Assembly: GCA_964391195.1 (NCBI GenBank)
Contig: CAYMLG010000008.1
Coordinates: 51,801 to 115,800, forward strand
DNA length: 64,000 bases
Direction: 5' to 3'
Origin: an uncultured Anaerolineaceae bacterium
Lineage (GTDB): Bacteria > Chloroflexota > Anaerolineae > Anaerolineales > UBA4823
Shown: piece by piece, positions 9,755 to 31,615 of the stretch
Layout of the letters: each line of letters begins with the position of its first letter
Position numbering within the stretch: the stretch's first letter is position 1
The notes under the pieces: generated by a model
Database searches by the model: none
What the model saw: the letters and a program-made list of their open reading frames with translations, nothing else
Told to the model about the DNA's origin: nothing
Program-made: the position numbers and the translations under genes

Positions 9755-10816
9755 ATGTCCGCAAAAGAATTGGAAAAGCTGCTAACCCGCGCCTGGGAAT
9801 ACAGGCAGGGACTGCCCGAGGCGGGCGATGATCGTACAGCCCTGCGCCTGTTCAACGGCTTCTGGGAAGGCTGGCCGGATCTGGCCGTGGATCTGTACGG
9901 TGGCACCCTCGTCATTCATGGCTATGCGCAAGACGCCGGACAAAACCAGCTCGCAGCACACACCGCTCTCGCCTATTATCGCTCCGCTCTCCCCGGCCGG
10001 GTGCGCTGTGCCCTCTTGAAAGACCGCGGGGCACAGACCCAAATGCAGCGCCAGGGACTGCTGCTTGCCGGAGAACAGCCGGATAATCAAGTGCTCGAAG
10101 GCAACCTCTGGTACGCCCTCGACCTGCGGTTGCACCAGGATGCTTCTCTCTATCTGGACACCCGAATGCTGCGCGGCTGGGCGAGCGAGCACATGGAAGG
10201 AAAGCGGGCGCTCAACCTGTTCGCCTATACCGGGAGCCTCGGCGCTGCCGCTCTGGCAGGCGGGGCCCGGCAGGTAATCCAGTCTGACCTCTCGTCCGAG
10301 TTCCTCTCTCTGGCCCAGCGGACCTACCGGCTGAATGGCTGGCCGGTCCGCCGAGGAGAGTTCATTGTTGGCGATTTCTTTTCCGTCGTCGCCCGCCTCA
10401 AGCGCCAGGGAGAGCTGTTCGACTGCGCATTCCTCGACCCGCCCATCTTCTCGGTGACGGAGAAGGGGCGGGTCGATCTCAACCAGGCGGCCGGCCGGCT
10501 GATCAACAAAGTTCGCCCGCTCATCGGCGATGGCGGCCGGCTGGTGGCGGTGAACAACGCCGTGTACGTATCCGGCCGCGCTTATCTAGAGACACTCGAA
10601 AAGTTGAGCGCCAGCGGCTACATCGAATTGGAAGAGATCCTCCCCGCTCCACCCGATTTCACCGGCTTCAACCAGGGGCCGCTCACACCCCTGCCCGCCG
10701 ATCCCCAGCCGTTCAATTACTCCACCAAGATCGCCGTCCTGCGTGTCCGGCGCAAGGACGGGCGCAGGGCAGTCGCTCCTCAAACACGGCCAGGAGAAAA
10801 ATCGCTGCGGGAATAG
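9755..10816 (+). CDS. Class I SAM-dependent methyltransferase (RlmI/RlmK-like)
   Basis: 353 aa with SAM-binding motif I NLFAYTGSLGAAALAGG and motif IV FLDPPIF. Confidence 0.75.
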   Translation: MSAKELEKLLTRAWEYRQGLPEAGDDRTALRLFNGFWEGWPDLAVDLYGGTLVIHGYAQDAGQNQLAAHTALAYYRSALPGRVRCALLKDRGAQTQMQRQGLLLAGEQPDNQVLEGNLWYALDLRLHQDASLYLDTRMLRGWASEHMEGKRALNLFAYTGSLGAAALAGGARQVIQSDLSSEFLSLAQRTYRLNGWPVRRGEFIVGDFFSVVARLKRQGELFDCAFLDPPIFSVTEKGRVDLNQAAGRLINKVRPLIGDGGRLVAVNNAVYVSGRAYLETLEKLSASGYIELEEILPAPPDFTGFNQGPLTPLPADPQPFNYSTKIAVLRVRRKDGRRAVAPQTRPGEKSLRE

Positions 10817-11961: not shown

Positions 11962-13425
11962 TTGATTGGAATGAGGCCGAAGGCTGTTTTCTTCTATGCC
12001 CTCCTTGGTATCGTCTTTTTGCTAACACTGACTGCAATAGGGATCATCACCGGGCAGATGCTCCCCCGTTCTGATTCCCTTCAAGTTTTGAGGAGCCAAT
12101 CCGAGGCCAGCCCCTCCTCCGGGACGGCGGGCGAAGCATCTCATGCCATAGACGAGGAGGCGACCCCCTCGGCGACGAGCACCGCCGTTCCGCTGTACCT
12201 GGCCGATACGGGGCTGGATGTCGACTGCACCTATACCTTTCTCTATTGGCGCGAACACCCCGAATCGTGGCTGGTGGACAACATCCTCGTTGGCGAAGCC
12301 GTGTACGATAAAGCGCAGATCCAGGCCTATTTTTCGGGTGAGAGCCAGGACCCCCAGGTGCTTCTCCACCAGCAGTTTTTCGCCGCCATCCTGAACACCA
12401 TCAAAGGGGCGGATGCCAGGCAGGTGGAAACAATCCTGCAAGCCGCATCCACCTACATTTTCGCCCACCACCGGGACCGGGAGATCACCGCTGAGGAGGA
12501 TCAGCAGGCCATCAAGCTGGCCCTGGCCCTCCAGGAGTACAACCTCGGCAACAGCGGCCCAGGGAGCTGCGCCGACCAGCCGGATAACCTGATCCTGGTG
12601 GCTGCCCCTACCGCGGGGGCGCCCACCGCTACCCAGTTGGTCACCAGCATCCTGGTCAACCTGGTCACGCCCACCCCTTCGGTCACCCCAATTCGGGTCA
12701 CCGCCACCCGCCAGGCTCCGCAATCTACGGCCGGGCCGACCGGAATCCCCCTTCAGCCAACGGACACGGCTCAGAACACCCCATCCCCGAGCGCCACCGC
12801 CTCTGGCACGAGCACGTTGTCTCCCGCGCCTCCCACCGCCTCCCAAACCCTGACCCCGGCCCCCAGTTCTTCACCCACCTCCACGACCAACCCCACGCCG
12901 CCAAACACCGCCACGATCCAGCCGACCAACGTTCCCAGCCCGACCAGCTCCGCCACCAGCCAGCCAACCGCGACGCCCCAGCCGACGAGCACCAGCACGA
13001 AACGACCGACGAATACCCCCCGGCCCAGCAATACGCCGCATCCAACAAAGACCTCGCCTCCCACCGACAGCCCGGAGCCCACCAACACCAGACGACCGAC
13101 AAACACCCCTCGGCCGAGCAACACGCCCCTTCCCACGAATACCCCGGTCCCACCCACGACCATTCCGCCAAGCAGTACGCCCTTGCCGCCCACCGATACG
13201 CCTCTCCCGCCCACCGATACCCCCATGCCCACCAGCACGCCCGAACCGCCCACTACAACGTCGGAGCCACCCACTTCAACACCAGAACCTCCCACGAGTA
13301 CGCCGGAGCCGCCCACCAGCACCCCCGAACCACCCACCAGTACCCCCGAACCGCCCACAGCCACACCCATCATCATCATAATCATCACAGTGGTCGTGCC
13401 CATCTTACCGCCGATGCTGCCTTGA
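11962..13425 (+). CDS. Membrane-anchored protein with a globular N-terminal domain and a long Pro/Thr/Ser-rich repeat region
   Basis: 487 aa. N-terminal TM helix, then a 200-aa domain (DVDCTYTFLYWREHPESW ... FFAAILNTIKGAD), then a 240-aa P/T/S low-complexity region ending in six PEPPTST heptads and a hydrophobic tail (IIIIITVVVPILPPMLP). Confidence 0.7.
   Translation: MIGMRPKAVFFYALLGIVFLLTLTAIGIITGQMLPRSDSLQVLRSQSEASPSSGTAGEASHAIDEEATPSATSTAVPLYLADTGLDVDCTYTFLYWREHPESWLVDNILVGEAVYDKAQIQAYFSGESQDPQVLLHQQFFAAILNTIKGADARQVETILQAASTYIFAHHRDREITAEEDQQAIKLALALQEYNLGNSGPGSCADQPDNLILVAAPTAGAPTATQLVTSILVNLVTPTPSVTPIRVTATRQAPQSTAGPTGIPLQPTDTAQNTPSPSATASGTSTLSPAPPTASQTLTPAPSSSPTSTTNPTPPNTATIQPTNVPSPTSSATSQPTATPQPTSTSTKRPTNTPRPSNTPHPTKTSPPTDSPEPTNTRRPTNTPRPSNTPLPTNTPVPPTTIPPSSTPLPPTDTPLPPTDTPMPTSTPEPPTTTSEPPTSTPEPPTSTPEPPTSTPEPPTSTPEPPTATPIIIIIITVVVPILPPMLP
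13243..13368 (+). repeat. Six tandem 21-nt (PEPPTST heptad) coding repeats
   Basis: gaaccgcccactacaacgtcg / gagccacccacttcaacacca / gaacctcccacgagtacgccg / gagccgcccaccagcaccccc / gaaccacccaccagtaccccc / gaaccgcccacagccacaccc. The copies differ mainly at synonymous positions. Confidence 0.85.
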
Positions 13426-13446
13426 GAGGAGTGGCTAGCGTAAGAC

Positions 13447-13476
13447 ACGGGTCCTGGCAGCGCTGCCAGGACCCGT
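13447..13476. terminator. Bidirectional terminator hairpin between convergent genes
   Basis: ACGGGTCCTGGCAG-cg-CTGCCAGGACCCGT is a perfect 14-bp stem, followed by TATTATTTGATTT on the plus strand. Confidence 0.7.
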
Positions 13477-13501: not shown

Positions 13502-15706
13502 TCAGTTCGGGATTGGGAGGACCTTGAGGGGGTTCAGGTAGCCGCCGGGCACGCGCACTTCGAAGTGCAGGTGTGGGCCGCCGGAGTTGCCGGTGTTGCC
13601 CGACAGGCCGATCAGATCACCGGCCTGCACTTTCGCCCCGCAGTGTTTGCTCACCTGGCTGAGATGGGCGTACAGGGTGATAAATCCGTTGCCGTGATCG
13701 ATGACAATGGCGTTGCCGTAGCCAATCGCGCCCGACCAGCCGGCGAACACCACCTGGCCGGTGTCCGCAGCATAGACCGCGGTCCCTTGGGGGGCGGAGA
13801 GGTCGAGTCCGGGGTGCCCTTCGCGGAAATCTCCGCCGGACAAAGCCTGGTAGACGCTGGGCCAGACGAACTGGCCGGTCCCCACCGGGCCATCCTTGAT
13901 CCCAGGGCAGCTCTGCCGGGCCACTTCGGTGAAGTCGACTTTCCCCGGATCGTAGGGGATATCTGGGAGGGGGACCCCACCTTCCTCCGCGGGAGGCGGT
14001 TCCTGTTCGTCCGGGCTTGGCGCCGGGGTGGGCGTTGGTTCCAGCACAGCGGTGGGAGTTGGGCCAGGCGGCGAGTCTTCGGGCCTTTCCTCCGGGGCCG
14101 CCTGCGCTGGCTGGAGCAGGGCAGCCTGTGCGAGTTGGGCGAAAATGGGGGCAGCCACCTGCGAGCCTTCTCCGGAATGTTCAACCAGCACCGCGATCAC
14201 CACACTGCGACCATCCGCCTCGGCGAAGCCGGTGAACCACGCGTGGGGGAGCCGGTCCCCACCGACCTGAGCTGTGCCGGTCTTCCCTCCCACGACCAAC
14301 CCAGGGACCTGGGCCTTGCGGCCGCTGCCCTGCTCGACCACGGCAATCATCATCTCGCGGACCAGGCTGGCCGTCTCCGGTTTCATCACCCCCGGCACAA
14401 CCTGCTCGACCAACGGCCCGGGCGAGACCTCCCCGGAAGGGTGGCGAATTTCTGCTACCAGGTGAGGGGTGGGCATATCACCCCGGTTGAGGACGGCCAA
14501 CACCAGGCGGGCCATATCCAGCGGGGTGACCAGCAGTTCTCCCTGCCCAATGCCGGTTGCCGCGCGCAGCAGCCGGCTCTCATACAGGCGATCCACCTCG
14601 GCCGCCACCTGGGAGGATAGAGCCGGGAGCTCGACCGGAAAACGCTCCCGGTCCGGGGCGTGCAGGCCCAGGCGGGTGGCATACTCGATCAGCACCTCGG
14701 GCGGCAGTTCATCCGCAATGCGGGCGAAGGCTGCGTTGGCCGACTTGGCATAAGACAGTTCCAGGGAAAGTTGCGCCTCGCGGTGGTTCGGGTCGGGGAT
14801 CACCCCACCCTCCACCTCGTAGACGTAGTATGGGCCGTCCGGTCCCTGGCGCGGCTCGCCGAAATCGAAGACCCGCTCCGGAGCCAGGCGGCCGGAATCC
14901 AGGCCGGCGATCAGGGTGACGGTCTTCCAGGTGGACCCGGGGGTGTATAGGGCCTGTACCGCCCGGTTCAGGAAGGGTGCCGCGCAGGCAGCTTCGTCAC
15001 ACTCAGAGGTGAGCTCTTCTACGTAACCCGGCTCGAGGATACGGTTTGGATCGAAACGCGGCAGGCTGGCCATGGCCAGCACTGCCCCGGACTCTCCATC
15101 GAGGATGACCACCGTCCCCGAGTGGCCGGCGAGGGCCTCCTCGGCTGCCTGCTGCAGACCGCTGTCGAGGGTGAGCACCAGGTCGGACCCGGTGACCGGC
15201 TCTTTAACCATGCGGCTGATTTGGGCGTCCAGGCGGTTGAGGCCGAGCAGCGTCTCGTTATAGGTGTATTCCAGCCCGGCGATACCGGTGCGGAGCCCGG
15301 AGACATAACCGATCACCGGGGCGAGAGAAGGCTCGTTGTAGAAACGGGTGCGGTTCCCATCCTCTTCGATGCGGTCGAAAGCGAGCAGCCGGCCGGCCCG
15401 GTCGTAGATGCTCCCCCGGGTGATCGTCCCGAGCAGGTCCACCGTGCGCTGGATCACCGGCTGGGGCAGGTCCTGCAAGCTGGTGAGGGCCGGGTCTGCG
15501 GAGATCAGCTTGATCGTTTCACCCGGGTCCTGCCGGACGCTCTTCAAGCCTCCGGCGTAACGCCCGGCAGCGACGACCGGGTCGAACAGCACCGGTGAGA
15601 GCAAATCGCCTCGCGCCATCTGCCAGTAGACCAGGCGCAGCGAGAGCAAAACCACCAGCAAGGTGAAGACGTTCCCCAGGGCCCACAGGCGCTTTTCGAA
15701 CCTCAT
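13502..15706 (-). CDS. Class B penicillin-binding protein (PBP2/PbpA-type transpeptidase) fused to a C-terminal M23/LytM peptidase domain
   Basis: Start set at MRFEKRLWAL (ATG 15706, ATGA overlap with the SEDS gene). TM anchor, then SxxK (STWK), SxN (SAN) and KTG (KTGTA) motifs. A Pro/Glu linker leads to the M23 motifs HPGLD and HLHFE with GNTGNSGGPH. Confidence 0.85.
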   Translation of the reverse strand: MRFEKRLWALGNVFTLLVVLLSLRLVYWQMARGDLLSPVLFDPVVAAGRYAGGLKSVRQDPGETIKLISADPALTSLQDLPQPVIQRTVDLLGTITRGSIYDRAGRLLAFDRIEEDGNRTRFYNEPSLAPVIGYVSGLRTGIAGLEYTYNETLLGLNRLDAQISRMVKEPVTGSDLVLTLDSGLQQAAEEALAGHSGTVVILDGESGAVLAMASLPRFDPNRILEPGYVEELTSECDEAACAAPFLNRAVQALYTPGSTWKTVTLIAGLDSGRLAPERVFDFGEPRQGPDGPYYVYEVEGGVIPDPNHREAQLSLELSYAKSANAAFARIADELPPEVLIEYATRLGLHAPDRERFPVELPALSSQVAAEVDRLYESRLLRAATGIGQGELLVTPLDMARLVLAVLNRGDMPTPHLVAEIRHPSGEVSPGPLVEQVVPGVMKPETASLVREMMIAVVEQGSGRKAQVPGLVVGGKTGTAQVGGDRLPHAWFTGFAEADGRSVVIAVLVEHSGEGSQVAAPIFAQLAQAALLQPAQAAPEERPEDSPPGPTPTAVLEPTPTPAPSPDEQEPPPAEEGGVPLPDIPYDPGKVDFTEVARQSCPGIKDGPVGTGQFVWPSVYQALSGGDFREGHPGLDLSAPQGTAVYAADTGQVVFAGWSGAIGYGNAIVIDHGNGFITLYAHLSQVSKHCGAKVQAGDLIGLSGNTGNSGGPHLHFEVRVPGGYLNPLKVLPIPN

Positions 15707-17112
15707 TCCGGCTGCCCCTCCAGGCGTTGGGCGATCGCCAGCACCAATCCGGTTTCGGCCAGGTTGACCAGCAGAGAGGTGCCGCCCAGACTGAGGAATG
15801 GGATGGTGATCCCGGTGAGAGGCAGCAGGTTGAGCGTGCCGCCGGCCATAATGAACACCTGGGTAAAAAAGTGAATGGCGATACCGGTCACCAGCAGGCG
15901 CTCGAACACCTGGGAGGCCGGCAGGAGGATCGCCACCCGGAGAATGCGCAGGAACAGCATGGCGAAAACGATCAGCACGGCGATACCGATCGCGGCCCCC
16001 ATCTCTTCTATGATCGCCGCGTAGATAAAATCCGAATGGGCCAGGGGCACATACTCCGGCGAACCAAGGCCCAGGCCGGTGCCGCTCAGCCCGCCGGCTG
16101 TGATGGCGTAGATGGCCTGTTGGATCTGGTAGCCGGGGCCTTCGGAGACGGTAATCCCCGCCGGCTGGCCGTCGATCAGGATGGGTTCCGTGCTCCACGG
16201 GTCTTGAAAAGCCAGGAAGCGGTAGCGGATAACGGTTGGGATCTCCCAGGTGAAGGCCAGCGCCAGCCCGGCGAGCAGGGCCAGCACCAGGCCGATGCTG
16301 GCGATGGTTGCGAACACCCGGGTATCGAACCCGGCGTAAAGCATGCCAACGAACAGGCAGGCCATAATCAGCACCGCGCCGAAATCTGACATCGCCACCA
16401 GGGCCAGGATGGACAGGGCGACGAAGAGCGCCCCGGGGAGGAAATAGTGCAGGCCAGGCAGCCGCAGCCAGCCGAAGAGCGGGCGCGCCCGACCTTCGGC
16501 CCGGCGGCCTTCCCGGTCAATGAACCAGGCGAGGAAGACGATCAGGGATACTTTGACGAACTCGGTGGTTTGAATGGCTGGCAAGGGGCCTAATTTCAGG
16601 GCCAGGCGAGCGCCGGTTTCGTCCACCACTCCGAACAGCGCGGTAGCAAACGGCAGCGCGAGCCCTACCAGGCTGATGGGTACCGCCCAGCGGCGCAGGG
16701 TCTCCACCAGCGGGGGGCGCTGGACCAGGACCCATATCAGGGCCATCCCGGGGAGCAAGCCGCGCAGCAATTGCTGCCAGGCGCCGCCGGCCCCCTGCAG
16801 GCGGAAGATCATCACCAGGCCGGTGGAAAAGAGCAGGGCAACCAGGGGGACCATGATCTGCTCTCCACGCATCCGGCGGAAGGACAACAGCAGGTGCAGG
16901 AGGGAGAACAGCGCGCAGACGAACAGGGGGGCAGGGAGGGCGCGCAGGGTGGCTTGCAGCGGGGCAGGGCCAGGCGATCCGCTGCCGGGGCTGCTGGCGC
17001 TCAGTTCCAGGCCGGCGGCCACCAGGGCGAAACCCATCACCGCCACGGCGAACACGATGGCCAGCAAGATGGCTTCAGAAAAACGGGGGGACAACCGGCC
17101 GGGCTTGAGCAT
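15703..17112 (-). CDS. SEDS-family peptidoglycan polymerase (FtsW/RodA)
   Basis: 469 aa and about 10 TM helices. SEDS motifs PLAHSDFIYAAIIEEMG and NLLPLTGITIPFLSLGGTSL. Confidence 0.9.
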   Translation of the reverse strand: MLKPGRLSPRFSEAILLAIVFAVAVMGFALVAAGLELSASSPGSGSPGPAPLQATLRALPAPLFVCALFSLLHLLLSFRRMRGEQIMVPLVALLFSTGLVMIFRLQGAGGAWQQLLRGLLPGMALIWVLVQRPPLVETLRRWAVPISLVGLALPFATALFGVVDETGARLALKLGPLPAIQTTEFVKVSLIVFLAWFIDREGRRAEGRARPLFGWLRLPGLHYFLPGALFVALSILALVAMSDFGAVLIMACLFVGMLYAGFDTRVFATIASIGLVLALLAGLALAFTWEIPTVIRYRFLAFQDPWSTEPILIDGQPAGITVSEGPGYQIQQAIYAITAGGLSGTGLGLGSPEYVPLAHSDFIYAAIIEEMGAAIGIAVLIVFAMLFLRILRVAILLPASQVFERLLVTGIAIHFFTQVFIMAGGTLNLLPLTGITIPFLSLGGTSLLVNLAETGLVLAIAQRLEGQPE

Positions 17113-17126
17113 TGAAAGGATCCGGT

Positions 17127-17594
17127 TCAGGCCAGGAACTCGAAGCTGGTGCCGCCAATTTCAATCACCGCTGTGGGTCGGAGAGGCGCCGCCTGGTGGG
17201 GGCGGCAAGGCGCGCCATCGACGACCGTCCCGTTGCGGCTGCCCAGATCCTCGATCCACCAGGTGAACCCATCCCACCGGATACGGGCGTGGCGGGCTGA
17301 GACGTATGGGTCCGGCAATACGATATCGTTCTCCTCACTCGCGCCCAGGCGCGTTTCCGGCTGCAGGGTCATGACCGCACCCGGGTGGAATGGCGATGAG
17401 CCGGCCGTCTTGAGTACCTTCAAGCGCCCGTGGGTCGGGGCGGCGTTGGAGCGAGCAGGCGCCGGCCCGTTCACGCGCACCGACAGTTCCCGGCGCACGG
17501 CGATGAGCACCACGAACAGCGCCAGGTAGATCAGCCCGATGAAGACCCATTTGGCTGCAAATAGAAGCGTGTTCCAGTCGAGAAAATCGATCAT
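17127..17594 (-). CDS. FHA-domain protein with N-terminal TM helix (FhaB-like)
   Basis: 155 aa. FHA core TRLGASEENDIVLPDPYVSARHARI ... SRNGTVVDG. Confidence 0.85.
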   Translation of the reverse strand: MIDFLDWNTLLFAAKWVFIGLIYLALFVVLIAVRRELSVRVNGPAPARSNAAPTHGRLKVLKTAGSSPFHPGAVMTLQPETRLGASEENDIVLPDPYVSARHARIRWDGFTWWIEDLGSRNGTVVDGAPCRPHQAAPLRPTAVIEIGGTSFEFLA

Positions 17595-18385
17595 CGGCAG
17601 TCTTGAACGAAATGGAGCAGGACGGCCCCCGGAGTGTACGGGTCAGGCGCGGTGGGATGAAGGGAGGCGAGGATAATCTGATCCCCCTCCTGCAGCGCGA
17701 TCCCCTCCGGTGGGACCCTACGGCGGTTGACGAAGGTGCCGTTCGTAGAGGACTTGCCCTCCGGCGTACCGTCGAACAGGCGGTAGTTGTCCCTCTCACA
17801 GCGCAAATAAGCGTGTCGGCCGCTTACCAGGCGCTTCTCCTGCACCAGCGGGTCCCGAAAAGAGATCTCGCAGTCTGGATCACGGCCGAGGACGAGGACT
17901 CCCGGATAGAGCCGCCAGCGCTGACCGGTGGATTCCATCTCCAGGCAGGCGGGGAGGGCGTCCGGGCGGGGAGATCCGCTTTCCTCTGCCGGCGCAAAGC
18001 GGCATAGGATGCGGGCCTGGTGGTCCTGCAAACCGGCCGCGGGCCGGACTTCCAGCTCCAGGCTTCCGGCCAGGCTGTATTCTTTGCGCCCCTGGCGGCT
18101 GTTGGCGGTGGCCAGGTGTTCGAGCATCATCTCCAACCATTGTTCGACGATGCGCCCGAGCAGCGGGGCGTAATGGGCGTGGAAGTTCTCCTGCCCCAAC
18201 TCGACCACGAACTGATTGGGGACGATCTTGCGGAAATGGACGTCCTCCAGCAGGAACTTCCGGTCGAGCAAACAGTCGCACAGCGCTTCGCCCACCTCGG
18301 CCGGGCGCAGCGGGGTCTTAAGCCAGGGGAGGCGCGGCCCCACCAGCCTGCTCTTCCAGCCCATCTCGGCCTGCAGCTCGCTCAC
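17591..18385 (-). CDS. FhaA-like protein (DUF3662-like N-terminus + C-terminal FHA domain)
   Basis: 264 aa. C-terminal FHA LVLGRDPDCEISF ... SGRHAYL ... STNGTFVN. 4-nt overlaps with both neighbours. Confidence 0.8.
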   Translation of the reverse strand: MSELQAEMGWKSRLVGPRLPWLKTPLRPAEVGEALCDCLLDRKFLLEDVHFRKIVPNQFVVELGQENFHAHYAPLLGRIVEQWLEMMLEHLATANSRQGRKEYSLAGSLELEVRPAAGLQDHQARILCRFAPAEESGSPRPDALPACLEMESTGQRWRLYPGVLVLGRDPDCEISFRDPLVQEKRLVSGRHAYLRCERDNYRLFDGTPEGKSSTNGTFVNRRRVPPEGIALQEGDQIILASLHPTAPDPYTPGAVLLHFVQDCR

Positions 18386-19071
18386 CGCTCACCTTCCCGC
18401 AAGCGCAGCAGGAGCAGCGTTTCGCCGACCTGGATGCGGTCGCCTGGATCGAGCCCCTTGTCGCTGATTTCGAAATCGTTCACCCGCGTCCCGTGGGTGC
18501 TGTTTAGATCGCGCAGGCGGAGCACCAGGGCTTGCTCGTAAATTTCGGCGTGCCGGCGTGAGACGGCCAGGTCGCCGTCCAGGCGGATATCCACCCCGCT
18601 GCCGCGGCCAATGGTGAGCGGCAGTCGCTGCAAGGGATACACCCGCCCGGAGTCCGGCCCCTCGAGGACAACCAGCTCGACCCGCCGCTGTGGCGCTTCC
18701 GCCTGGCGCCCGGCGCCTGTAGCGTGGACCGGCTCGGCGATTGTTGGGTGCAGCAGGTCGGCGGCGGGGATGGTTGCCATGCGCCTGGGTTCCGGGTCAG
18801 GGGGTTTGAGCAGCGTCACCCGCCGCACCTCCCCCGGCGCTTGGGAGACGGCTGGCTCCAGCAGGTGCAGCAAGATACGGATGAACAGGTAAGCCAGGAA
18901 GCCGAGACCAGGCAGCAGGGCGACCAGGGCGAGCCAGGCAATTTGCGCCGAGGCCGGCTGCTGGCGGCGGCTGAGATCCACGTAGGTGATCGCGATCGAG
19001 GCAACCCACAACAGCAAGCCCAGGCAGCCGAGCCCGGCGATGATCAGCACTCGGGAAAATAAATCTTCCAT
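18382..19071 (-). CDS. Membrane-anchored FHA-domain protein (PLDc_N-like two-helix N-terminus + FHA)
   Basis: 229 aa. The N-terminus YVDLSRRQQPASAQIAWLALVALLPGLGFLAYLF resembles the PLD-nuclease N-terminal membrane domain. C-terminal FHA LTIGRGSGVDIRL ... SRRHAEI ... STHGTRVN. Confidence 0.75.
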   Translation of the reverse strand: MEDLFSRVLIIAGLGCLGLLLWVASIAITYVDLSRRQQPASAQIAWLALVALLPGLGFLAYLFIRILLHLLEPAVSQAPGEVRRVTLLKPPDPEPRRMATIPAADLLHPTIAEPVHATGAGRQAEAPQRRVELVVLEGPDSGRVYPLQRLPLTIGRGSGVDIRLDGDLAVSRRHAEIYEQALVLRLRDLNSTHGTRVNDFEISDKGLDPGDRIQVGETLLLLRLREGER

Positions 19072-19247
19072 ACCCTTCAGTTCGATTGGAGAACCGTTTT
19101 CACTACCGGTGTAGATTTTACCTCAGAGGAGGATAACCAAATTCTATCATCTCTTGTTCAGTTTCATCTGAGGAATCAGGGATGAGGGGCGGCAAGGAGG
19201 AAAAGGTGAAGGCCCAGGCCACGAAATGGCGGGCAGGGGTTACTGCT

Positions 19248-20366
19248 TTAGAACAGCCGGATGAAACCCAAACGCGCGAGCAGGAAGATGAACACCAACG
19301 CCGCGCTTAACCAACCCAGGAGGATGCCCAGCAGCAGGCGGCCAGCTGTCCTACGGGTCCGCTCCGGGGTGCCAGCGCCTGGCTTAGGTTCAGGAGGCGG
19401 CGGGGAAACAGCCTGGGAGGCCGGAGCGAAGGCTTCAGGACGTCGTCCCAGCGTCGGCCCGGCGGTCGCCGCCGGTGGGGTGAGCAGGGTCGGCACCCCG
19501 GTCTTGAGCGCCTGAGGGTCCTGCGGGGCGTCCGCCGCAGAATCAGCTCCCGCCTCCGGACGCGGCAAACAGCGGGCGACGATTGCAGTGCAGTTGTCGC
19601 TCCCATCCCGCGCGACGGCCTCCTCCACCAGCGCCCGTGCGGCCTCTGCCGCGTCGAGTCCAAGCGTGATCTCGGACACTTCCGAGGCGTCCAGGCTCGA
19701 CAGGCCATCGGTGCACAGGATCAGCGCATCCCCTTCCGACCAGGTGTAGTGGTACAGATCGACCTGGCAGGAGTCTGAGAGCCCCACCGCCCGGGTGATC
19801 AATCCGTTGGCCCTGGGGTCGAGGTCACCGCCCCCCGCCAGTCCGGCTTTCGCCGCTCGCACCTGCCCGCTGTGATCCTCGGTGAGCTGGCGCCGTTGGC
19901 GGTTTGCAGCCTGCACCAGGTAGGCGCGGCTGTCGCCCACGTTGGCGACCCACAGATGTTCCCCGGCCAGCACCGCCGCGACCAGGGTCGTCAGCCGCCA
20001 GGCGCCAGGATTGGGATGGCGGGCGGACTCGAGCCGGTTGAGGGCGTTCACCGCTTCGACACATTCGCGCAGCCGGTCCCCCAAATGCTCAGTCCCCATC
20101 TGGGCATAATAGAGAGCCTGCAGATAGGCCACAGCCTCACGGCTGGCTTCCCCTCCCCCCTCCAGGCCGCCGACTCCGTCGGCCACGACGATCAGGGTGC
20201 CGAAATTCGCCTCGTCTGCTCCCGAAGCCGGGAGTGACCAGGCGTCTTCGTTGCGCGACCGCAGGCGCCCGGCGGAAGTGGCTGCCGCGCACCAGGGAGG
20301 GGCGAAGGGCGGGAGCGGGCCAGGACCGGGCTGGTCGTCCCAATCTCGTAGGTTCTTGGCGGTCAT
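19248..20366 (-). CDS. PP2C-family Ser/Thr phosphatase with C-terminal TM anchor (PstP-like)
   Basis: Motifs VVADGVGG, LCTDGLS, GSDNCTAIV. Pro-rich linker and terminal hydrophobic helix LLLGILLGWLSAALVFIFLLA. Confidence 0.9.
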   Translation of the reverse strand: MTAKNLRDWDDQPGPGPLPPFAPPWCAAATSAGRLRSRNEDAWSLPASGADEANFGTLIVVADGVGGLEGGGEASREAVAYLQALYYAQMGTEHLGDRLRECVEAVNALNRLESARHPNPGAWRLTTLVAAVLAGEHLWVANVGDSRAYLVQAANRQRRQLTEDHSGQVRAAKAGLAGGGDLDPRANGLITRAVGLSDSCQVDLYHYTWSEGDALILCTDGLSSLDASEVSEITLGLDAAEAARALVEEAVARDGSDNCTAIVARCLPRPEAGADSAADAPQDPQALKTGVPTLLTPPAATAGPTLGRRPEAFAPASQAVSPPPPEPKPGAGTPERTRRTAGRLLLGILLGWLSAALVFIFLLARLGFIRLF

Positions 20367-20492
20367 CCCACCGATTATAACCTCGCTTCTGCGTATGGCT
20401 CAGCATTTTGTAGACAGCTTACAGAGATGCAATTTACTCGCTTGCCTCAGGGGGGAGGTTATGGGATAATGCCGGTGAAGCCTGGACATACC

Positions 20493-22250
20493 ATGTCGAT
20501 GAACGATCCCTTCACCGGAAAACAAGTGGAACACTTCCGCATCGAGCGGCTGCTCGGGCGCGGGGGGATGGGCAGCGTGTATTACGGGTGGGACCTGCGC
20601 CTCGATCGCCCGGTCGCAATCAAAATCCTCGACCCGCGCTACCAGGAAGACCCGGCATTTGCGGCCCGTTTCCTGCAAGAGGCGCGGGCGGTGGCCGCCT
20701 GGAAGCACCCCAACATCATCCAGGTGTACTATGCCGGTGAGGACCTGGGAGTCCATTATTTCGCCATGGAGTACGTTCCCGGGCAGGACCTGGAAGCCAG
20801 GCTGAAGAGCTACTCCGAGCGTGGAGAGCTGATCCCCCAGGGAGAAGCGCTGCGGATCGGGCGGGCGGTCGCCTCGGCCTTGGATTACGCCCATCGCCAG
20901 GGGGTGATCCACCGTGACGTCAAGCCATCCAACATCCTGTTGGCCGATGACGGGCGGGTGGTGATCACCGATTTTGGTCTGGCGATGCGGGTGACCGAGA
21001 AGTCGCTCGGAGAAGTGTTCGGCAGCCCATTCTACATCGCCCCCGAGCAGGCGCGCAGTTCAGCCAGCGCTACCCCGCTCTCAGACCTGTATTCGCTCGG
21101 AGTGATCCTCTACGAGATGCTGACCGGATCTCCGCCGTTCAGCGATCCTTCACCCACAGCCCTGGCCATCCAGCACCTCACCCTGCCCCCACCGCCCGCA
21201 CGGGAGAGAAACCCGGACCTGAACGCCGCGGTGGAACAGGTGCTTGCCAGGGCGCTGAGCAAGCAGCCGGAAGCCCGCTATCCATCCGGCCAGGCGCTGA
21301 TCGATGCCCTGGAAGCGGCGCTGGCCCAGGCGGATGAGGGAGCCGAACCGCCCACCCAACCTCTGCTGGTCTCCGAGCAGTTGGCTCCGGATGATGAAGT
21401 TCCCCACCGCGGGCAGCCGGAGCTCGGACCCGCTTCGCCCCACGGCGGCGCCAGCCAGGCGCCTCGACTGATGTGGTATTCCGCCGGCTGCGGGCTGACC
21501 ACGGTGCTCGCGGTGCTGGTCTTGCTCATCGCCTCCTTTGCGCTCTCGCAGGCTCAGGCCCAACGCAGCAAGGCCACAGAACCCGGCCAGCAGGCGCAGA
21601 CCGCGGTAGCCGGATTGGATCCCGCCAACATCGCCACCCGCACCGCCCCTCCAACTACCTCGGCCGTCACCAGGACCGCCACCTTTGAGCCAACCCCCAC
21701 CAGCCGGCCGAGCGATACCCCACTCCCGCCCAGCCCGACCCCCGAACCGCTCACGCCCACCCCGCTCCCGCCTACCATCACCCCGTCTGCGACGCCCGAG
21801 CCACCCACCGCCGCCCCGCCCCAGCCGGCTGAGGGGCAAGTAGAGGACGAGGAGGATGGGGATTTCGTGCTCTATTACGACGATTCCAGCTTTTATATCG
21901 AGAACCGCTCTGGTAAAGACCGTTCGATCTATCCCCTCTCGTTCGAGTTGCTCAACAAAGATGAGAAGCCGGTCAGGCGGTTCGACGGTTGGATCTGGGG
22001 CGAGATCTACCCAAACTTCCGGACGGGTTACTGCATGTCGCTGGAGATCATCAACATCGAGCGCCACCTGGACCCGCCGGAATGCCGGGACAAGATCCTC
22101 GTCTACCGCACACCACGCTCGGACGCCAATTACATCTTCTGGATCCGCGATAGCGACAGTAGAGAGTTCCGGGTGCTGTGGCGCGATGCCGAAGTCAAAC
22201 GGTGTAAAATAGCCCAGAAGACCTGTGCGTTCAACTTACCAGACCCATGA
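20493..22250 (+). CDS. Hanks-type Ser/Thr protein kinase with TM helix and Cys-containing C-terminal ectodomain
   Basis: The ORF opens at 20427; I prefer ATG 20493 (MSMNDPF). Kinase motifs GRGGMGSVYYG, VAIK, HRDVKPSNILL, DFGLA, APEQ. TM GLTTVLAVLVLLIASFAL, then a P/T linker and a 129-aa ectodomain. Confidence 0.9.
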   Translation: MSMNDPFTGKQVEHFRIERLLGRGGMGSVYYGWDLRLDRPVAIKILDPRYQEDPAFAARFLQEARAVAAWKHPNIIQVYYAGEDLGVHYFAMEYVPGQDLEARLKSYSERGELIPQGEALRIGRAVASALDYAHRQGVIHRDVKPSNILLADDGRVVITDFGLAMRVTEKSLGEVFGSPFYIAPEQARSSASATPLSDLYSLGVILYEMLTGSPPFSDPSPTALAIQHLTLPPPPARERNPDLNAAVEQVLARALSKQPEARYPSGQALIDALEAALAQADEGAEPPTQPLLVSEQLAPDDEVPHRGQPELGPASPHGGASQAPRLMWYSAGCGLTTVLAVLVLLIASFALSQAQAQRSKATEPGQQAQTAVAGLDPANIATRTAPPTTSAVTRTATFEPTPTSRPSDTPLPPSPTPEPLTPTPLPPTITPSATPEPPTAAPPQPAEGQVEDEEDGDFVLYYDDSSFYIENRSGKDRSIYPLSFELLNKDEKPVRRFDGWIWGEIYPNFRTGYCMSLEIINIERHLDPPECRDKILVYRTPRSDANYIFWIRDSDSREFRVLWRDAEVKRCKIAQKTCAFNLPDP

Positions 22251-24025
22251 TCCCTGAAGACTCGTTACTCAGCCGCCAACTGGACGAATACCAGATCGAA
22301 GCCCTCCTCGGCCGGGGAGGAATGGCCCGCGTCTACCGGGCGTTCGATATCCGCCTTAAGCGCCGGGTCGCGATCAAAGTGATCGACACCCCCTATCGGG
22401 CCGAGGCCGGCTATGTCACCCGCTTCGAGCGCGAGGCCCAGGTCATCGCGCAGCTGTCTCACCCCCAGGTGGTCCAACTCTACCGCTATGGGGAAGCGGA
22501 CGGCTTTTTGTATATGGTAATGCAGTACATCGACGGCGCCGACCTGCACAGCATCCTCCACAGCTACCGCCAGGACGGGGAGTTCATGCAGCCGGACGAA
22601 ATCCTGCCGGTGGTCAGAGATATCTGCGAGGCCCTGGACTATATCCACAACCACGGGGTCGTTCACCGGGATATCAAGCCGTCGAACATCATGCTCACTC
22701 GCCAGGGACGGGCTGTGCTGACGGATTTTGGCCTGGCCTTGCTGACCGATGTAGGCACCCTGGGGCACGTATTCGGCTCCCCGCAGTACATCGCCCCCGA
22801 GCAAGCCGTGTCGTCGGCCAACGCCAGCCCGGCCAGCGACCTGTATTCCCTGGGGGTGATCCTGTACGAAATCTACACCGGGCGCCTGCCATTCCTGGCC
22901 GATGACGCCGTGGAACTGGCGATGCAGCACATCACCGCCGCGCCGCCCTCCCCCCGGCAGATCCGCCCCGAGATCAGCCCCGAGGTGGAAGGGGTGATCC
23001 TGAGGCTGCTGGCGAAAGACCCGCAGGCGCGTTACAGCAGCGGATCCGCGGTGGTCCGGGCCCTGGAGCAAGCCCTGGGCGGGAGGCCGGGAGCCACTGA
23101 ACCTCTGCCCACGATCGGCCGGTTAACCATGCCCGAGCGGGTAGACCTTCACACCCCGGCCTTGTCTGAGGCAAAAGTACAGCCTGAGGCTATAGAACAG
23201 CCTGAGGCGAAAGTACAGCCTGAGGCTAATGTACAGCCTGAGGCTTCAGAACAGCCCGAGGCGAAAGCACAGGCTGGAGTGCAGCCCGAGGTCCATAACC
23301 GGCCGGCCCCGCCAACCGTGGGTGAGGGGGACGCCCCAGGCGCCCGGCCCTCCGGACCGCATACCGCCTCATCCCCTAATCTGCGTCGCAGCCTGCCCTG
23401 GATCGGGGCAGGGGCCGGGTGCCTGGCGCTGCTGGTGCTCGCCTGCCTGGTGGTGTTTTCAACTGCCCGCCTGCTCGGCATCTTCCTGCCAGACCAGCGC
23501 CTCACCGCCCCCACGGCCCAGCCGCGGGAAGAACAGGTCATCCCGAGTCCTACAGATTTGCCGCGGCCGGCCGTCGAAACCCCGCCGCCAACCAACACTC
23601 CCCAAAACACCCCCGAGGTGGCGACCCCAACCGCCACGCCCCCCGCCGGCCTCGGCCTGCTGCTGGCAAAACTGGGTAAGGACGCCCCTACCCTTGTACT
23701 GGTCAACCAGGGCCGGGAGAGCTTCCTCCTGGGCGGCTTACAACTGGGTAATACCCCCAGCAAAGTGTTCGGCCAGGACTGGGAGGTGGAGCGCCTGGAG
23801 GTTGGGCAGTGCGTGGTGGTGCAGCGCAAAGGCAAGAAAAAACCGCGGCTGGACGACATCGACTGCGAGCCGGTAGGCAAAACTCTGGAACGCGAAGGCA
23901 AGGCCACCTTCTGGATGTCCCCATTCAATGTCTACTATAACGGCCAGTACATTGGCAGTTGCGAGCAGGATGAGAACGAGTGCCGGGTGGAGATTCCCAG
24001 CGAGCTGATCCAGGGTTCCAAATAA
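22247..24025 (+). CDS. Hanks-type Ser/Thr protein kinase, paralogous architecture
   Basis: Kinase motifs GRGGMARVYRA, VAIKV, HRDIKPSNIML, DFGLA, APEQ. QPEAxV hexapeptide repeats, TM CLALLVLACLVVF, and a 125-aa Cys-containing ectodomain. 4-nt overlap with the upstream kinase. Confidence 0.9.
   Translation: MIPEDSLLSRQLDEYQIEALLGRGGMARVYRAFDIRLKRRVAIKVIDTPYRAEAGYVTRFEREAQVIAQLSHPQVVQLYRYGEADGFLYMVMQYIDGADLHSILHSYRQDGEFMQPDEILPVVRDICEALDYIHNHGVVHRDIKPSNIMLTRQGRAVLTDFGLALLTDVGTLGHVFGSPQYIAPEQAVSSANASPASDLYSLGVILYEIYTGRLPFLADDAVELAMQHITAAPPSPRQIRPEISPEVEGVILRLLAKDPQARYSSGSAVVRALEQALGGRPGATEPLPTIGRLTMPERVDLHTPALSEAKVQPEAIEQPEAKVQPEANVQPEASEQPEAKAQAGVQPEVHNRPAPPTVGEGDAPGARPSGPHTASSPNLRRSLPWIGAGAGCLALLVLACLVVFSTARLLGIFLPDQRLTAPTAQPREEQVIPSPTDLPRPAVETPPPTNTPQNTPEVATPTATPPAGLGLLLAKLGKDAPTLVLVNQGRESFLLGGLQLGNTPSKVFGQDWEVERLEVGQCVVVQRKGKKKPRLDDIDCEPVGKTLEREGKATFWMSPFNVYYNGQYIGSCEQDENECRVEIPSELIQGSK
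23168..23293 (+). repeat. About seven tandem 18-nt coding repeats (E-A-x-x-Q-P)
   Basis: gaggcaaaagtacagcct / gaggctatagaacagcct / gaggcgaaagtacagcct / gaggctaatgtacagcct / gaggcttcagaacagccc / gaggcgaaagcacaggct, plus a degenerate copy. Confidence 0.85.
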
Positions 24026-31580: not shown

Positions 31581-31615
31581 CCAGCCTTGAACCAACCTTT
31601 ACCAGGGAGCGAACT

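What the first reader, a model, noticed from the sequence alone, without database searches (positions are those of the whole stretch)
13502..15706. Peptidoglycan transpeptidase (class B PBP) and M23 endopeptidase fused in one polypeptide and translationally coupled to a SEDS polymerase
The 734-aa protein has a TM anchor and intact transpeptidase motifs STWK / SAN / KTGTA. After a Pro/Glu/Thr linker it carries a complete LytM-type domain with the Zn-ligand motifs HPGLD (HxxxD) and HLHFE (HxH). Its ATG overlaps the stop of the FtsW/RodA gene (ATGA). In the model systems I know, cross-link-making bPBPs and cross-link-cleaving M23 endopeptidases (MepM, LytM, ShyA, EnvC-like) are separate proteins. 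A covalent synthase-hydrolase fusion sitting on a SEDS partner would hard-wire a make-and-break mechanism for wall insertion.
Basis: partly seen in the sequence, partly recalled or inferred. Interest (0 to 1): 0.65.

Follow-up and report, generated by a model that had tools for sequence, protein, structure and literature searches.

The report
Cell-wall synthase fused to hydrolase
One clade of uncultured Anaerolineae (Chloroflexota) carries, in a single conserved protein, the enzyme domain that cross-links the cell wall and a zinc peptidase domain of the type that cuts such cross-links; this natural fusion, which I did not find described in the literature I could search, could help test how wall building and wall cutting are coordinated.

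Summary
Window 13502-15706 (-) is one 734-aa ORF containing a TM anchor, a PbpA-type pedestal, a transpeptidase domain (STWK/SAN/KTG), a Pro/Thr/Ala/Glu linker and an M23 module (HPGLD, YAHL, HLHFE). Its ATG overlaps the SEDS stop codon (ATGA).

It is not an assembly or frameshift artefact. The identical protein occurs on 9 independently assembled contigs. At least 120 protein clusters at 53-61% identity share the architecture. In 98 aligned homologs the PBP motifs are invariant and the five M23 catalytic residues are kept in 95-98 sequences.

The fusion has a single origin inside Anaerolineae. Its PBP part nests among unfused PbpA orthologs at the same FhaA/FhaB/SEDS/PbpA locus. Its M23 module is closest to a stand-alone TM-LysM-M23 protein of the same class.

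A neighbouring lineage fused a polysaccharide deacetylase at the same position. The fold is closest to actinobacterial PbpA.

The "hard-wired make-and-break" reading is plausible but inferred; M23 activity, substrate and coupling are untested. No paper found describes the fusion, including a 2025 survey of bPBP architectures. Verdict: real, a new variant of a known kind, moderately interesting.

The parts
13502..15706 (-). PBP::M23 fusion gene (734 aa plus stop)
   Evidence: Uninterrupted ORF. Pfam Transpeptidase and Peptidase_M23. The identical protein occurs on 9 independent contigs.
15620..15688 (-). N-terminal membrane anchor (residues about 7-29)
   Evidence: Hydrophobic stretch after MRFEKR. 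AlphaFold helix at residues 2-31. The N-in/C-out topology is inferred from bPBP homology.
15119..15466 (-). PbpA-type pedestal / dimerisation domain (residues 81-196)
   Evidence: PF21922 hit at residues 97-174, 24.2 bits, under its cutoff of 27. Foldseek TM-score (target-normalised) 0.83-0.88 to PbpA-type structures 4mnr, 4n1x and 3upp.
14129..15118 (-). DD-transpeptidase domain (residues 197-526) with S258xxK261, S322xN324, K475TG
   Evidence: PF00905, E 3.9e-53. All three motifs are invariant in 98/98 homologs.
13970..14116 (-). Pro/Thr/Ala/Glu-rich flexible linker (residues 531-579)
   Evidence: pLDDT below 50 for residues 539-575. Lowest conservation of any region and variable length, 42-101 aa measured over residues 531-595.
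13505..13969 (-). M23 module (residues 580-734). It comprises a conserved N-terminal extension (PDIP..C600) and the LytM-type core (Pfam residues 630-726, window 13529-13819) with H631, D635, H681, H712, H714.
   Evidence: PF01551, E 6.4e-33. Catalytic residues are kept in 95-98 of 98 homologs and Cys600/Cys689 are invariant. The nearest solved relatives are active M23 peptidases: 3slu, 6muk, 5j1l, 6jmx and ShyA 6ue4.
15703..17112 (-). SEDS glycosyltransferase gene (FtsW/RodA family, 469 aa); its stop overlaps the PBP start (ATGA)
   Evidence: PF01098, E 4e-53. NCBIfam FtsW 184 bits and RodA 161 bits, both below their cutoffs. The overlap is conserved in L001-L004 and L085, and the same ATGA start context is present in L081.
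17127..17594 (-). FhaB-like gene: TM plus FHA domain (155 aa)
   Evidence: PF00498, E 1e-18. Syntenic in L001-L004.
17591..18385 (-). FhaA-like FHA protein (264 aa)
   Evidence: PF00498, E 1.8e-13, plus a weak FhaA_N hit. Syntenic in related loci.
18382..19071 (-). PLDc_N plus FHA membrane protein (229 aa)
   Evidence: Pfam. Syntenic in L001-L004.
19248..20366 (-). PP2C Ser/Thr phosphatase (PstP-like, 372 aa)
   Evidence: PF13672 and PF00481.
20427..24025 (+). Two Ser/Thr protein kinase genes (607 and 592 aa), transcribed divergently from the phosphatase
   Evidence: PF00069, E 1.8e-50 and 1.7e-54; no PASTA hit at E<=1e-4.
13447..13476 (.). Perfect 13-bp GC-rich hairpin between the fusion gene and the convergent + strand ORF; probable bidirectional terminator and end of the operon
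   Evidence: Terminator scan.

Best explanation
The gene encodes a genuine bifunctional, membrane-anchored, extracytoplasmic enzyme of an Anaerolineae clade.

Components:
- A PbpA-type class B PBP (DD-transpeptidase). It is the partner of the translationally coupled SEDS polymerase.
- A catalytically competent LytM/M23 zinc peptidase module at its C-terminus, held on a 40-100-residue Pro-rich flexible tether.

Setting: the pair sits in a Chloroflexota version of the actinobacterial fhaA-fhaB-pstP-rodA-pbpA Ser/Thr-kinase-regulated cell-wall cluster.

Origin: the fusion replaced the TM anchor and LysM targeting domains of a stand-alone Anaerolineae M23 hydrolase with the synthase itself.

Proposed mechanism (inferred): M23 activity is confined to a radius of a few tens of nanometres around an active SEDS-bPBP synthase, and is present 1:1 with it. 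The peptidase opens peptide cross-links in the existing wall exactly where and when new strands are polymerised and cross-linked. This is a space-maker tethered to the maker.

Shown: architecture, conservation, single origin, intact catalytic residues, synteny. Inferred: extracytoplasmic topology, endopeptidase activity, cross-link substrate, functional coupling.
For: Architecture and motifs.

Not an artefact: 9 independent contigs carry the identical protein. All 120 listed homologous clusters contain both domains.

Purifying selection on both halves:
- Mean pairwise identity is 0.63 for the TP domain, 0.68 for the M23 module and 0.34 for the linker.
- SxxK, SxN and KTG are kept in 98/98 homologs.
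- H631 and D635 are kept in 98/98, H681 in 97/98, H712 in 95/98 and H714 in 97/98.

Single origin:
- The M23 modules of the 98 fusions form one clade against 75 stand-alone modules.
- The PBP parts of the fusions are monophyletic. They are sister to unfused PbpA proteins P0122, P0123 and P0132.
- At 50% clustering the fusion family collapses to one full-length representative plus fragments.

Source of the M23 module: stand-alone M23 proteins of 353-468 aa (most open frames), 45-59% identical, in Anaerolinea, Bellilinea, Leptolinea, Longilinea and others. The A. thermophila example is a TM, LysM-like, M23 protein by my reading of its sequence.

SEDS partnership:
- The ATGA overlap is conserved in L001-L004 and L085, and the same ATGA start context is present in L081.
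- SEDS::PbpA single-chain fusions occur among relatives and are described in PMC12516126.

PbpA identity: Foldseek TM-score (target-normalised) 0.83-0.88 to Eggerthella, Atopobium and M. tuberculosis PBPA.

Tether: residues 539-575 have pLDDT below 50, between two confident domains.

M23 type: the nearest relatives are active DD-endo/carboxypeptidases. By sequence to solved structures these are 3slu, 6muk, 5j1l, 6jmx and 6ue4. By NCBIfam they are MepM, Pgp3 and ShyA.

A parallel PBP::polysaccharide-deacetylase fusion sits at the orthologous locus. This suggests the PbpA C-terminus is a docking point for wall-tailoring enzymes.
Against: - There is no biochemical or genetic evidence of any kind.
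- Close M23 relatives such as Neisseria NMB0315/Mpg, Helicobacter Csd3 and Campylobacter Pgp3 are, from my own knowledge, carboxypeptidases as well as endopeptidases. The bond cleaved is therefore uncertain.
- The peptidoglycan chemotype of this lineage is unknown.
- A long floppy tether is also what one would expect if the PBP merely serves as a membrane anchor, with no kinetic coupling.
- Sister lineages manage with an unfused PbpA and a free LysM-M23. The fusion is therefore not mechanistically required.
- Whether this SEDS-bPBP pair acts in elongation or in septation is unresolved. FtsW and RodA models score similarly.
Confidence: 0.55

Rival explanations
1. Trimming rather than breaking. 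The tethered M23 module is mainly a DD- or LD-carboxypeptidase. It shortens stem peptides on nascent or nearby glycan strands, tuning how many donor or acceptor peptides the adjacent transpeptidase can use. It would control cross-linking degree or cell shape rather than make space.
For: By sequence, the nearest solved relatives include Neisseria NMB0315/Mpg (3slu, 6muk), Helicobacter TagE/Csd-type proteins (5j1l) and Campylobacter Pgp3 (6jmx). NCBIfam Pgp3 scores 83.6 bits, nearly equal to MepM at 86.2 bits. From my own knowledge these enzymes have carboxypeptidase activity as well as endopeptidase activity and act in shape control.
Against: MepM and ShyA, classical space-making DD-endopeptidases, score comparably. 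Sequence cannot separate the two activities.
Confidence: 0.17
2. Septum-specific role. The SEDS-PBP::M23 pair is a division or septation synthase. The M23 module would split or thin septal wall, giving cell separation or controlled filament fragmentation in these filamentous bacteria, rather than serving lateral insertion.
For: The SEDS protein scores slightly better on the FtsW model than on the RodA model (184 against 161 bits, both below cutoff). From my own knowledge, mycobacterial PbpA has been linked to septation and many M23 proteins act at the septum.
Against: The locus lacks dcw genes. The PBP matches the PBP2/MrdA model best (233 bits) and PbpA structures. PMC12516126 treats kinase-flanked PbpA_dimer bPBPs as a third, non-FtsI class.
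Confidence: 0.13
3. Anchor only. The PBP simply replaces the TM and LysM anchor of the ancestral hydrolase. This retains it at the membrane of a bacterium without an outer membrane. The two activities are not functionally coordinated beyond co-expression.
For: The ancestral-type stand-alone protein is TM plus LysM-like plus M23 by my reading of its sequence. The linker is long, disordered and variable in length. Chloroflexota are increasingly regarded as monoderm (abstract of bioRxiv 10.1101/2025.08.19.671072).
Against: The stand-alone form already has its own TM anchor, so anchoring alone gives no obvious gain. The fusion is stably conserved across at least 120 clusters. A second wall-tailoring enzyme was independently fused at the same position, which suggests that proximity to the synthase is what is selected.
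Confidence: 0.1
4. Non-catalytic LytM factor. The M23 domain is a regulator or binding module in the manner of EnvC, NlpD, DipM or SpoIIQ. It would activate an amidase or another autolysin, or bind peptidoglycan, next to the synthase.
For: NCBIfam models for ActS, DipM, NlpD and EnvC all give significant sub-threshold hits to residues about 600-732.
Against: All five Zn-ligand or catalytic residues are present here and kept in 95-98 of 98 homologs. Degenerate LytM factors are defined by having lost them.
Confidence: 0.04
5. Artefact. A missed stop or frameshift, or a chimeric assembly, joins two separate genes.
For: None found.
Against: The identical protein occurs on 9 independently assembled contigs. 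All 120 listed clusters at 53-61% identity show the same in-frame fusion despite different linker lengths. The same synteny is seen in four GTDB genomes.
Confidence: 0.01

Closest known systems
Actinobacterial RodA-PbpA pair in the fhaA-fhaB-pstP-rodA-pbpA-pknA-pknB cluster (M. tuberculosis Rv0014c-Rv0020c; PBPA structures 3lo7, 3un7, 3upp)
   Same: The gene order FHA, FHA, (PP2C), SEDS, bPBP is shared, with Ser/Thr kinases next door. The PbpA-type short pedestal (PF21922) and the fold match (TM-score about 0.84-0.85 to M. tuberculosis PBPA). The SEDS and PBP genes overlap.
   Different: This protein has an extra C-terminal linker and M23 module. Here the kinases are divergent rather than downstream, and no PASTA domain was detected. 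There is an additional PLDc_N-FHA gene.
Stand-alone M23/LytM DD-endopeptidases (E. coli MepM, V. cholerae ShyA, Neisseria NMB0315/Mpg, Helicobacter Csd3, Campylobacter Pgp3), and the TM-LysM-M23 protein of Anaerolinea and relatives
   Same: Same catalytic core: HxxxD, a catalytic His and HxH. The module is 45-59% identical to the Anaerolineae stand-alone proteins, including the Cys-containing N-terminal extension.
   Different: The stand-alone enzymes are separate, diffusible or self-anchored proteins with LysM or other targeting and inhibitory N-terminal domains. Here that N-terminal part is replaced by a complete bPBP.
Single-chain synthase fusions: class A PBPs (GT51 plus TP) and SEDS::bPBP 'giant' proteins (PMC12516126)
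   Same: Cooperating wall enzymes are covalently joined. SEDS::PbpA fusions are among the nearest relatives of this PBP (P0136 and P0143).
   Different: Those fusions join two synthetic activities. This one joins a synthetic activity to a hydrolytic one.
Hoeltje's multi-enzyme 'three-for-one' / make-before-break complexes, and the endopeptidase requirement for wall expansion
   Same: The concept is the same: a synthase and a cross-link-cleaving hydrolase act together at the insertion site (reviewed in PMC6403190). The abstract of PMC8092314 states that the coordination is poorly understood.
   Different: In model organisms the association is hypothetical, transient or indirect. Here it is a covalent 1:1 link.
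L,D-transpeptidase (YkuD) proteins carrying an additional M23 domain, catalogued in PMC6403190 Table 3
   Same: A cross-link-forming domain and an M23 domain occur in one polypeptide.
   Different: The transpeptidase family is unrelated (Cys-based YkuD, 3-3 cross-links). It has no SEDS partner, and as far as I could find it is listed only as an architecture.

Membership tests
Class B penicillin-binding protein, PbpA type | Transpeptidase domain with the SxxK, SxN and KTG active-site motifs | tested here: met
   PF00905, E 3.9e-53. STWK, SAN and KTG are present and invariant in 98/98 homologs.
Class B penicillin-binding protein, PbpA type | N-terminal membrane anchor followed by a non-catalytic pedestal (PbpA dimerisation type), with no GT51 domain | tested here: met
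   Helix at residues 2-31. PF21922 scores 24.2 bits, just below its cutoff of 27. Foldseek TM-score (target-normalised) is 0.83-0.88 to PbpA structures that include this domain. No GT51 hit.
Class B penicillin-binding protein, PbpA type | Cognate SEDS glycosyltransferase partner | tested here: met
   The adjacent SEDS gene has a 4-nt ATGA overlap with the PBP start. The overlap is conserved in L001-L004 and L085, and the same ATGA start context is present in L081. Physical interaction was not tested.
Class B penicillin-binding protein, PbpA type | DD-transpeptidase activity and beta-lactam acylation | not testable with these tools
   Needs Bocillin binding and lipid II cross-linking assays.
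NCBIfam equivalogs PBP2/MrdA, FtsI, SpoVD | Score above the curated equivalog cutoff | tested here: not met
   Best hit is TIGR03423 pbp2_mrdA at 232.8 bits against a cutoff of 455. SpoVD and FtsI score far lower. It is therefore not filed as MrdA, FtsI or SpoVD.
Peptidase family M23 (LytM/lysostaphin type), catalytically active | M23 domain above the Pfam gathering score | tested here: met
   113.3 bits against 28.7, covering profile positions 2-96 of 96.
Peptidase family M23 (LytM/lysostaphin type), catalytically active | Zn ligands HxxxD and the second His of HxH, plus two catalytic His residues | tested here: met
   H631, D635, H681, H712 and H714 are present. They are conserved in 98, 98, 97, 95 and 97 of 98 homologs respectively. 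They align with 3slu/6muk.
Peptidase family M23 (LytM/lysostaphin type), catalytically active | Zn-dependent cleavage of peptidoglycan peptides; bond specificity | not testable with these tools
   Needs an enzyme assay on sacculi or muropeptides.
Degenerate LytM factors (EnvC, NlpD, DipM, SpoIIQ) | Loss of one or more Zn-ligand or catalytic residues | tested here: not met
   All residues are intact. It is not filed here.
Actinobacterial-type FHA/PP2C/SEDS/PbpA/STPK cell-wall regulatory cluster | FhaA-like and FhaB-like FHA genes, a PP2C phosphatase, SEDS, PbpA and Ser/Thr kinase(s) together | tested here: met
   All are present within window 13502-24025. The FHA/FHA/SEDS/PBP core is conserved in related loci, which also carry a kinase gene nearby.
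Actinobacterial-type FHA/PP2C/SEDS/PbpA/STPK cell-wall regulatory cluster | PASTA-domain kinase (PknB type) co-transcribed downstream of pbpA | tested here: not met
   The kinases are divergently transcribed and gave no PASTA hit at E<=1e-4. A relative (L088) does have a kinase directly downstream of pbpA.

The most novel reading that the evidence does not exclude
The fusion is a self-contained wall 'insertase'. In this reading M23 cleavage is mechanistically gated by the state of the SEDS-bPBP synthase: for example it is released or activated only when the PBP adopts its extended, active conformation or engages a nascent strand. Each synthesis event would then be obligatorily paired with a local cross-link cleavage. 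In these Anaerolineae the fusion would replace the free space-making endopeptidases. That would be direct natural evidence for Hoeltje-type coupled make-and-break. Together with the PBP::deacetylase and SEDS::PBP fusions at the same locus, it would reveal the composition of a PbpA-centred multi-enzyme complex that also exists non-covalently in Actinobacteria and other bacteria.
Probability: 0.22. Interest if true: 0.8.

Novelty: new variant of a known kind. Interest (0 to 1): 0.55.

Why it matters
How bacteria coordinate cutting of the stress-bearing wall with insertion of new material is a decades-old open question. In model organisms the hydrolases are redundant and separate, and their physical link to the Rod/SEDS machinery is indirect or disputed.

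A conserved, single-origin, covalent bPBP-M23 fusion with both active sites under purifying selection is 'Rosetta-stone' evidence. It indicates that these two activities are advantageously kept within nanometres of each other and at 1:1 stoichiometry.

It also offers a compact experimental object. One polypeptide plus its SEDS partner could be reconstituted to ask whether hydrolysis depends on synthesis.

The parallel deacetylase fusion suggests a more general rule: the C-terminus of PbpA is where wall-tailoring enzymes are docked.

Limits on the impact: the clade is uncultured, the effect may be plain tethering, and domain shuffling among wall enzymes is common.

Tried and rejected
1. Global architecture search. 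No tool can query 'PF00905 and PF01551' directly. As a substitute I used the exhaustive representative search. Among the 150 best of 161,432 hits, only one full-length representative (P0028) and about eight fragments span both domains. All other two-stretch or long hits proved to be SEDS::PBP, PBP::deacetylase or multi-M23/BlaR1-like proteins. Independent PBP-M23 fusions in other phyla with weaker similarity cannot be excluded.

2. GTDB genome scan. The 4 fusion-bearing species genomes (L001-L004) are therefore a lower bound, and the absence of the fusion from cultured genera (Anaerolinea, Bellilinea and others) is not established.

3. Origin by read-through of an adjacent M23 gene. I found no support for this. 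There is no M23 gene next to unfused pbpA in L081, L086 or L088. There is no PBP within 8 kb of the 76 stand-alone M23 genes.

4. Second M23 gene in the window: none found.

5. Inter-domain docking in the AlphaFold model. Coordinates and PAE are not exposed, so I could not tell whether the M23 groove is occluded by its N-terminal extension or by the PBP.

6. Literature. Eight full-text searches and four papers read found no description of a bPBP-M23 fusion. The supplementary tables of PMC12516126 are not held, so the architecture could be buried there.

7. Rfam scan of the window: no hits.

8. Elongation versus division assignment from HMM scores: inconclusive.
Full report
**1. What is in the sequence**

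On the minus strand, window 13502-15706 is a single open frame of 734 codons plus a stop. Its ATG (15706-15704) overlaps the TGA of the preceding gene at 15703-17112, giving ATGA. A GGAGGGG stretch lies a few bases upstream.

Pfam places three domains:
- a PbpA-type pedestal (PF21922, residues 97-174, 24.2 bits, just under its cutoff);
- a Transpeptidase domain (residues 197-526, E 3.9e-53);
- a full-length Peptidase_M23 domain (residues 630-726, E 6.4e-33).

The upstream gene is an FtsW/RodA/SpoVE (SEDS) protein (E 4e-53).

These are STWK (S258/K261), SAN (S322/N324), KTGTA (K475), HPGLD (H631/D635) and HLHFE (H712/H714), plus the catalytic His of YAHL (H681).

**2. Is it an artefact?**

No.
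- The identical 734-aa protein was called on nine separately assembled contigs from several sequencing runs, always after the same SEDS gene.
- All 120 best clusters in the 5.8-billion-protein database (53-61% identity, nearly all 704-783 aa) carry both PF00905 and PF01551.
- In an alignment of 98 full-length homologs the linker varies from 42 to 101 residues and is only 34% identical on average, yet it never breaks the frame.

**3. Are both halves functional?**

Conservation says both are under purifying selection.
- Mean pairwise identity is 0.63 for the TP domain, 0.68 for the M23 module and 0.34 for the linker.
- SxxK, SxN and KTG are invariant (98/98).
- The M23 residues are kept as follows: H631 98/98, D635 98/98, H681 97/98, H712 95/98, H714 97/98.

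Four cysteines are invariant: C236/C241 in the PBP and C600/C689 in the M23 module. This would fit extracytoplasmic disulfides, but that is an inference I could not test.

By sequence, the nearest solved M23 structures are active peptidases:
- Neisseria NMB0315/Mpg (3slu, 6muk);
- Helicobacter TagE/Csd-type (5j1l);
- Campylobacter Pgp3 (6jmx);
- Vibrio ShyA (6ue4).

The best NCBIfam M23 models are MepM, Pgp3 and ShyA-type.

**4. Structure**

AlphaFold2 with the 98-sequence alignment gives mean pLDDT 86 and pTM 0.70.
- The PBP body and the M23 module are confident.
- Residues 539-575 are disordered (pLDDT below 50).
- A short conserved segment just before the M23 core (residues 581-590, PDIPxDP) is confident. 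It also aligns in several of the stand-alone M23 proteins, so I assign it to the M23 module.

Foldseek against the PDB puts the PBP part closest to actinobacterial PbpA-type proteins: Eggerthella 4mnr, Atopobium 4n1x and others, and M. tuberculosis PBPA 3upp/3un7. Target-normalised TM-scores are 0.83-0.88. These rank ahead of PBP2 and PBP3.

I could not inspect coordinates or PAE, so whether the M23 groove is occluded is unknown.

**5. Genomic setting**

Upstream on the same strand are:
- an FhaB-like TM-FHA gene (17127-17594);
- an FhaA-like FHA gene (17591-18385);
- a PLDc_N-FHA gene (18382-19071);
- a PP2C phosphatase (19248-20366).

Two Ser/Thr kinase genes diverge from the phosphatase (20427-24025). 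Neither has a detectable PASTA domain.

This is the Chloroflexota counterpart of the actinobacterial fhaA-fhaB-pstP-rodA-pbpA-pknA-pknB cluster (my own knowledge for the actinobacterial order). PMC12516126 likewise notes kinase- and phosphatase-flanked PbpA_dimer bPBPs as a third class beside FtsI and MrdA.

A perfect 13-bp hairpin at 13447-13476 separates the fusion gene from a convergent gene and probably ends the operon.

**6. Distribution and origin**

Distribution:
- Source names of homologs are Anaerolineales, Anaerolineaceae, Anaerolineae or Chloroflexi/Chloroflexota bacterium.
All four show the same PLDcN-FHA / FhaA / FhaB / SEDS / PBP::M23 synteny and the ATGA overlap.
- The exhaustive search of 1.84 billion 50%-identity representatives returned one full-length fusion representative (P0028) and a handful of fragments.
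- The next-best hits are unfused PbpA proteins of 516-576 aa (47-52% identity), SEDS::PBP single-chain fusions, and two PBP::polysaccharide-deacetylase fusions.

Phylogeny (neighbour-joining trees):
- The PBP parts of the fusions are monophyletic. They are sister to the unfused P0122/P0123/P0132, then to P0124/P0125/P0129, then to the deacetylase fusions.
- The M23 modules of the 98 fusions are monophyletic against 75 stand-alone modules.

Source of the M23 module:
- The stand-alone proteins (open frames mostly 353-468 aa, 45-59% identical in the module) occur in Anaerolinea, Bellilinea, Leptolinea, Longilinea, Flexilinea, Pelolinea and other genera. They have no PBP within 8 kb.
- The A. thermophila example, by my reading of its sequence, is TM plus two LysM-like repeats plus M23, and lies just downstream of a gene that looks like rho.

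Unfused sister PbpA genes sit in the same FhaA/FhaB/SEDS/PbpA locus with no M23 gene next to them.

The simplest history is this. Once, inside Anaerolineae, the catalytic module of the class's own LysM-M23 hydrolase was transplanted onto the C-terminus of PbpA. The synthase thereby replaced the hydrolase's anchor and targeting domains. Read-through of a neighbouring gene is not supported.

**7. How it most likely works**

Shown:
- There is a 1:1 covalent link between a competent-looking DD-transpeptidase and a competent-looking M23 peptidase.
- The two are joined by a flexible Pro-rich tether.
- Both lie C-terminal to the single N-terminal membrane anchor.
- The gene is translationally coupled to a SEDS polymerase and embedded in a Ser/Thr-phosphorylation control cluster.

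Inferred:
- Both catalytic domains are outside the membrane.
- The M23 module cuts peptide cross-links (or stems) only within reach of the synthase.
- Opening of the old wall is therefore spatially and stoichiometrically matched to insertion of new strands.
- In an envelope without an outer membrane this also prevents loss or off-target action of a dangerous hydrolase. Chloroflexota are increasingly regarded as monoderm.

I put about 0.55 on this tethered space-maker reading. The rivals are:
- a stem-trimming carboxypeptidase role (0.17), because the closest characterised M23 enzymes do both;
- a septum-specific role (0.13);
- mere anchoring without coupling (0.10);
- a non-catalytic LytM factor (0.04);
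- an artefact (0.01).

The strongest version, hydrolysis gated by the synthase's conformational or catalytic state, is not excluded. I give it about 0.22.

**8. Comparison with what is known, and novelty**

- The parts are classical (PbpA-type bPBP, SEDS, M23), and so is the regulatory cluster.
- SEDS::PbpA giant fusions are already described (PMC12516126).
- YkuD-type L,D-transpeptidases with an extra M23 domain are catalogued (PMC6403190, Table 3).
- Eight full-text searches and four papers read found no description of a bPBP-M23 fusion.
- The 2025 InterPro-based survey of bPBP architectures lists PASTA, Peptidase_M56, OB, MecA_N, PBPA_dimer and SEDS partners. Its main text contains no M23, LytM or deacetylase.
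- Public annotations call these proteins only 'penicillin-binding protein A', 'peptidoglycan glycosyltransferase' or 'transpeptidase domain-containing protein'.

I therefore rate it a new variant of a known kind. It is real, conserved and confined (as far as seen) to one Anaerolineae clade, with a plausible but untested mechanistic meaning.

Interest is 0.55. A peptidoglycan specialist would find it a useful natural experiment bearing on a long-standing question. However, domain shuffling among wall enzymes is common and the hosts are uncultured.

Noticed in passing
L085 8001-10169 (P0126, 722 aa); also P0135 (716 aa): At the orthologous FHA/FHA/SEDS/PbpA locus of another MAG (assembly GCA_964389925.1), PbpA carries a C-terminal polysaccharide deacetylase domain (PF01522, PgdA-like) instead of M23. 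It has the same ATGA overlap with SEDS. In the PBP tree these proteins branch just outside the M23-fusion clade and its unfused sisters. This is a second, independent fusion of a wall-tailoring enzyme to the PbpA C-terminus.
   Followed up: partly
P0136, P0143 and other representatives of about 870-984 aa: P0136 and P0143 are single-chain SEDS::bPBP fusions (FTSW_RODA_SPOVE plus PBP_dimer_2 and/or Transpeptidase). Roughly a dozen further representatives have the same size and match position. They are among the closest relatives of this PBP, and PMC12516126 describes this kind of protein. They reinforce that the adjacent SEDS is the cognate partner.
   Followed up: partly
window 8969-9572: The region between an ABC ATPase gene (7785-8711, -) and an unannotated 353-aa ORF (9755-10816, +) holds 3-4 diverged copies (80-84% identity) of a roughly 165-172-nt unit. 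Each unit contains GC-rich hairpins, for example GGCACGGCGG..N31..CCGCCGTGCC at 9082-9132. One unit folds with z = -4.0. There is no Rfam hit and TRF does not call it. Its nature is unknown (structured repeat, MITE-like element or small RNA array).
   Followed up: partly
window 11962-13425 (+) versus 12771-13448 (-): There is a 487-aa + strand ORF consisting of a TM segment, a domain of about 200 aa and a long Pro/Thr/Ser-rich tail with 21/42-nt tandem repeats (13176-13368). It lies convergent to the fusion gene and has no Pfam hit. A public gene call instead annotates the antisense 210-aa Gly/Val-rich ORF (L082 4304-4936). The hairpin terminator at 13447-13476, with a T-rich tail on the + strand, favours the + strand ORF.
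   Followed up: partly
window 18382-19071 (-): A membrane protein combines a PLDc_N (short membrane) domain with a C-terminal FHA domain. It is a third FHA gene in the cluster and is syntenic in all four fusion-bearing genomes. The two unfused relatives and the deacetylase locus I examined (L085, L086, L088) show only two FHA genes.
   Followed up: no
L086 8713-12993: In an unfused relative, pbpA is followed by four genes: a PA14/SH3_3 protein, a sortase, a VanW/PG_binding_4 protein and a LysM protein. The sortase hints at a monoderm-type envelope, and the gene content hints at a larger wall-remodelling neighbourhood.
   Followed up: no
window 24185-26308 (+) and 28842-34519 (+): There is a 707-aa FecR plus triple DUF5666 protein next to the kinases. 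Further on lie an unusually large (912 aa) SBP_bac_1 solute-binding protein and a 967-aa FtsX-like permease. I did not examine these further.
   Followed up: no
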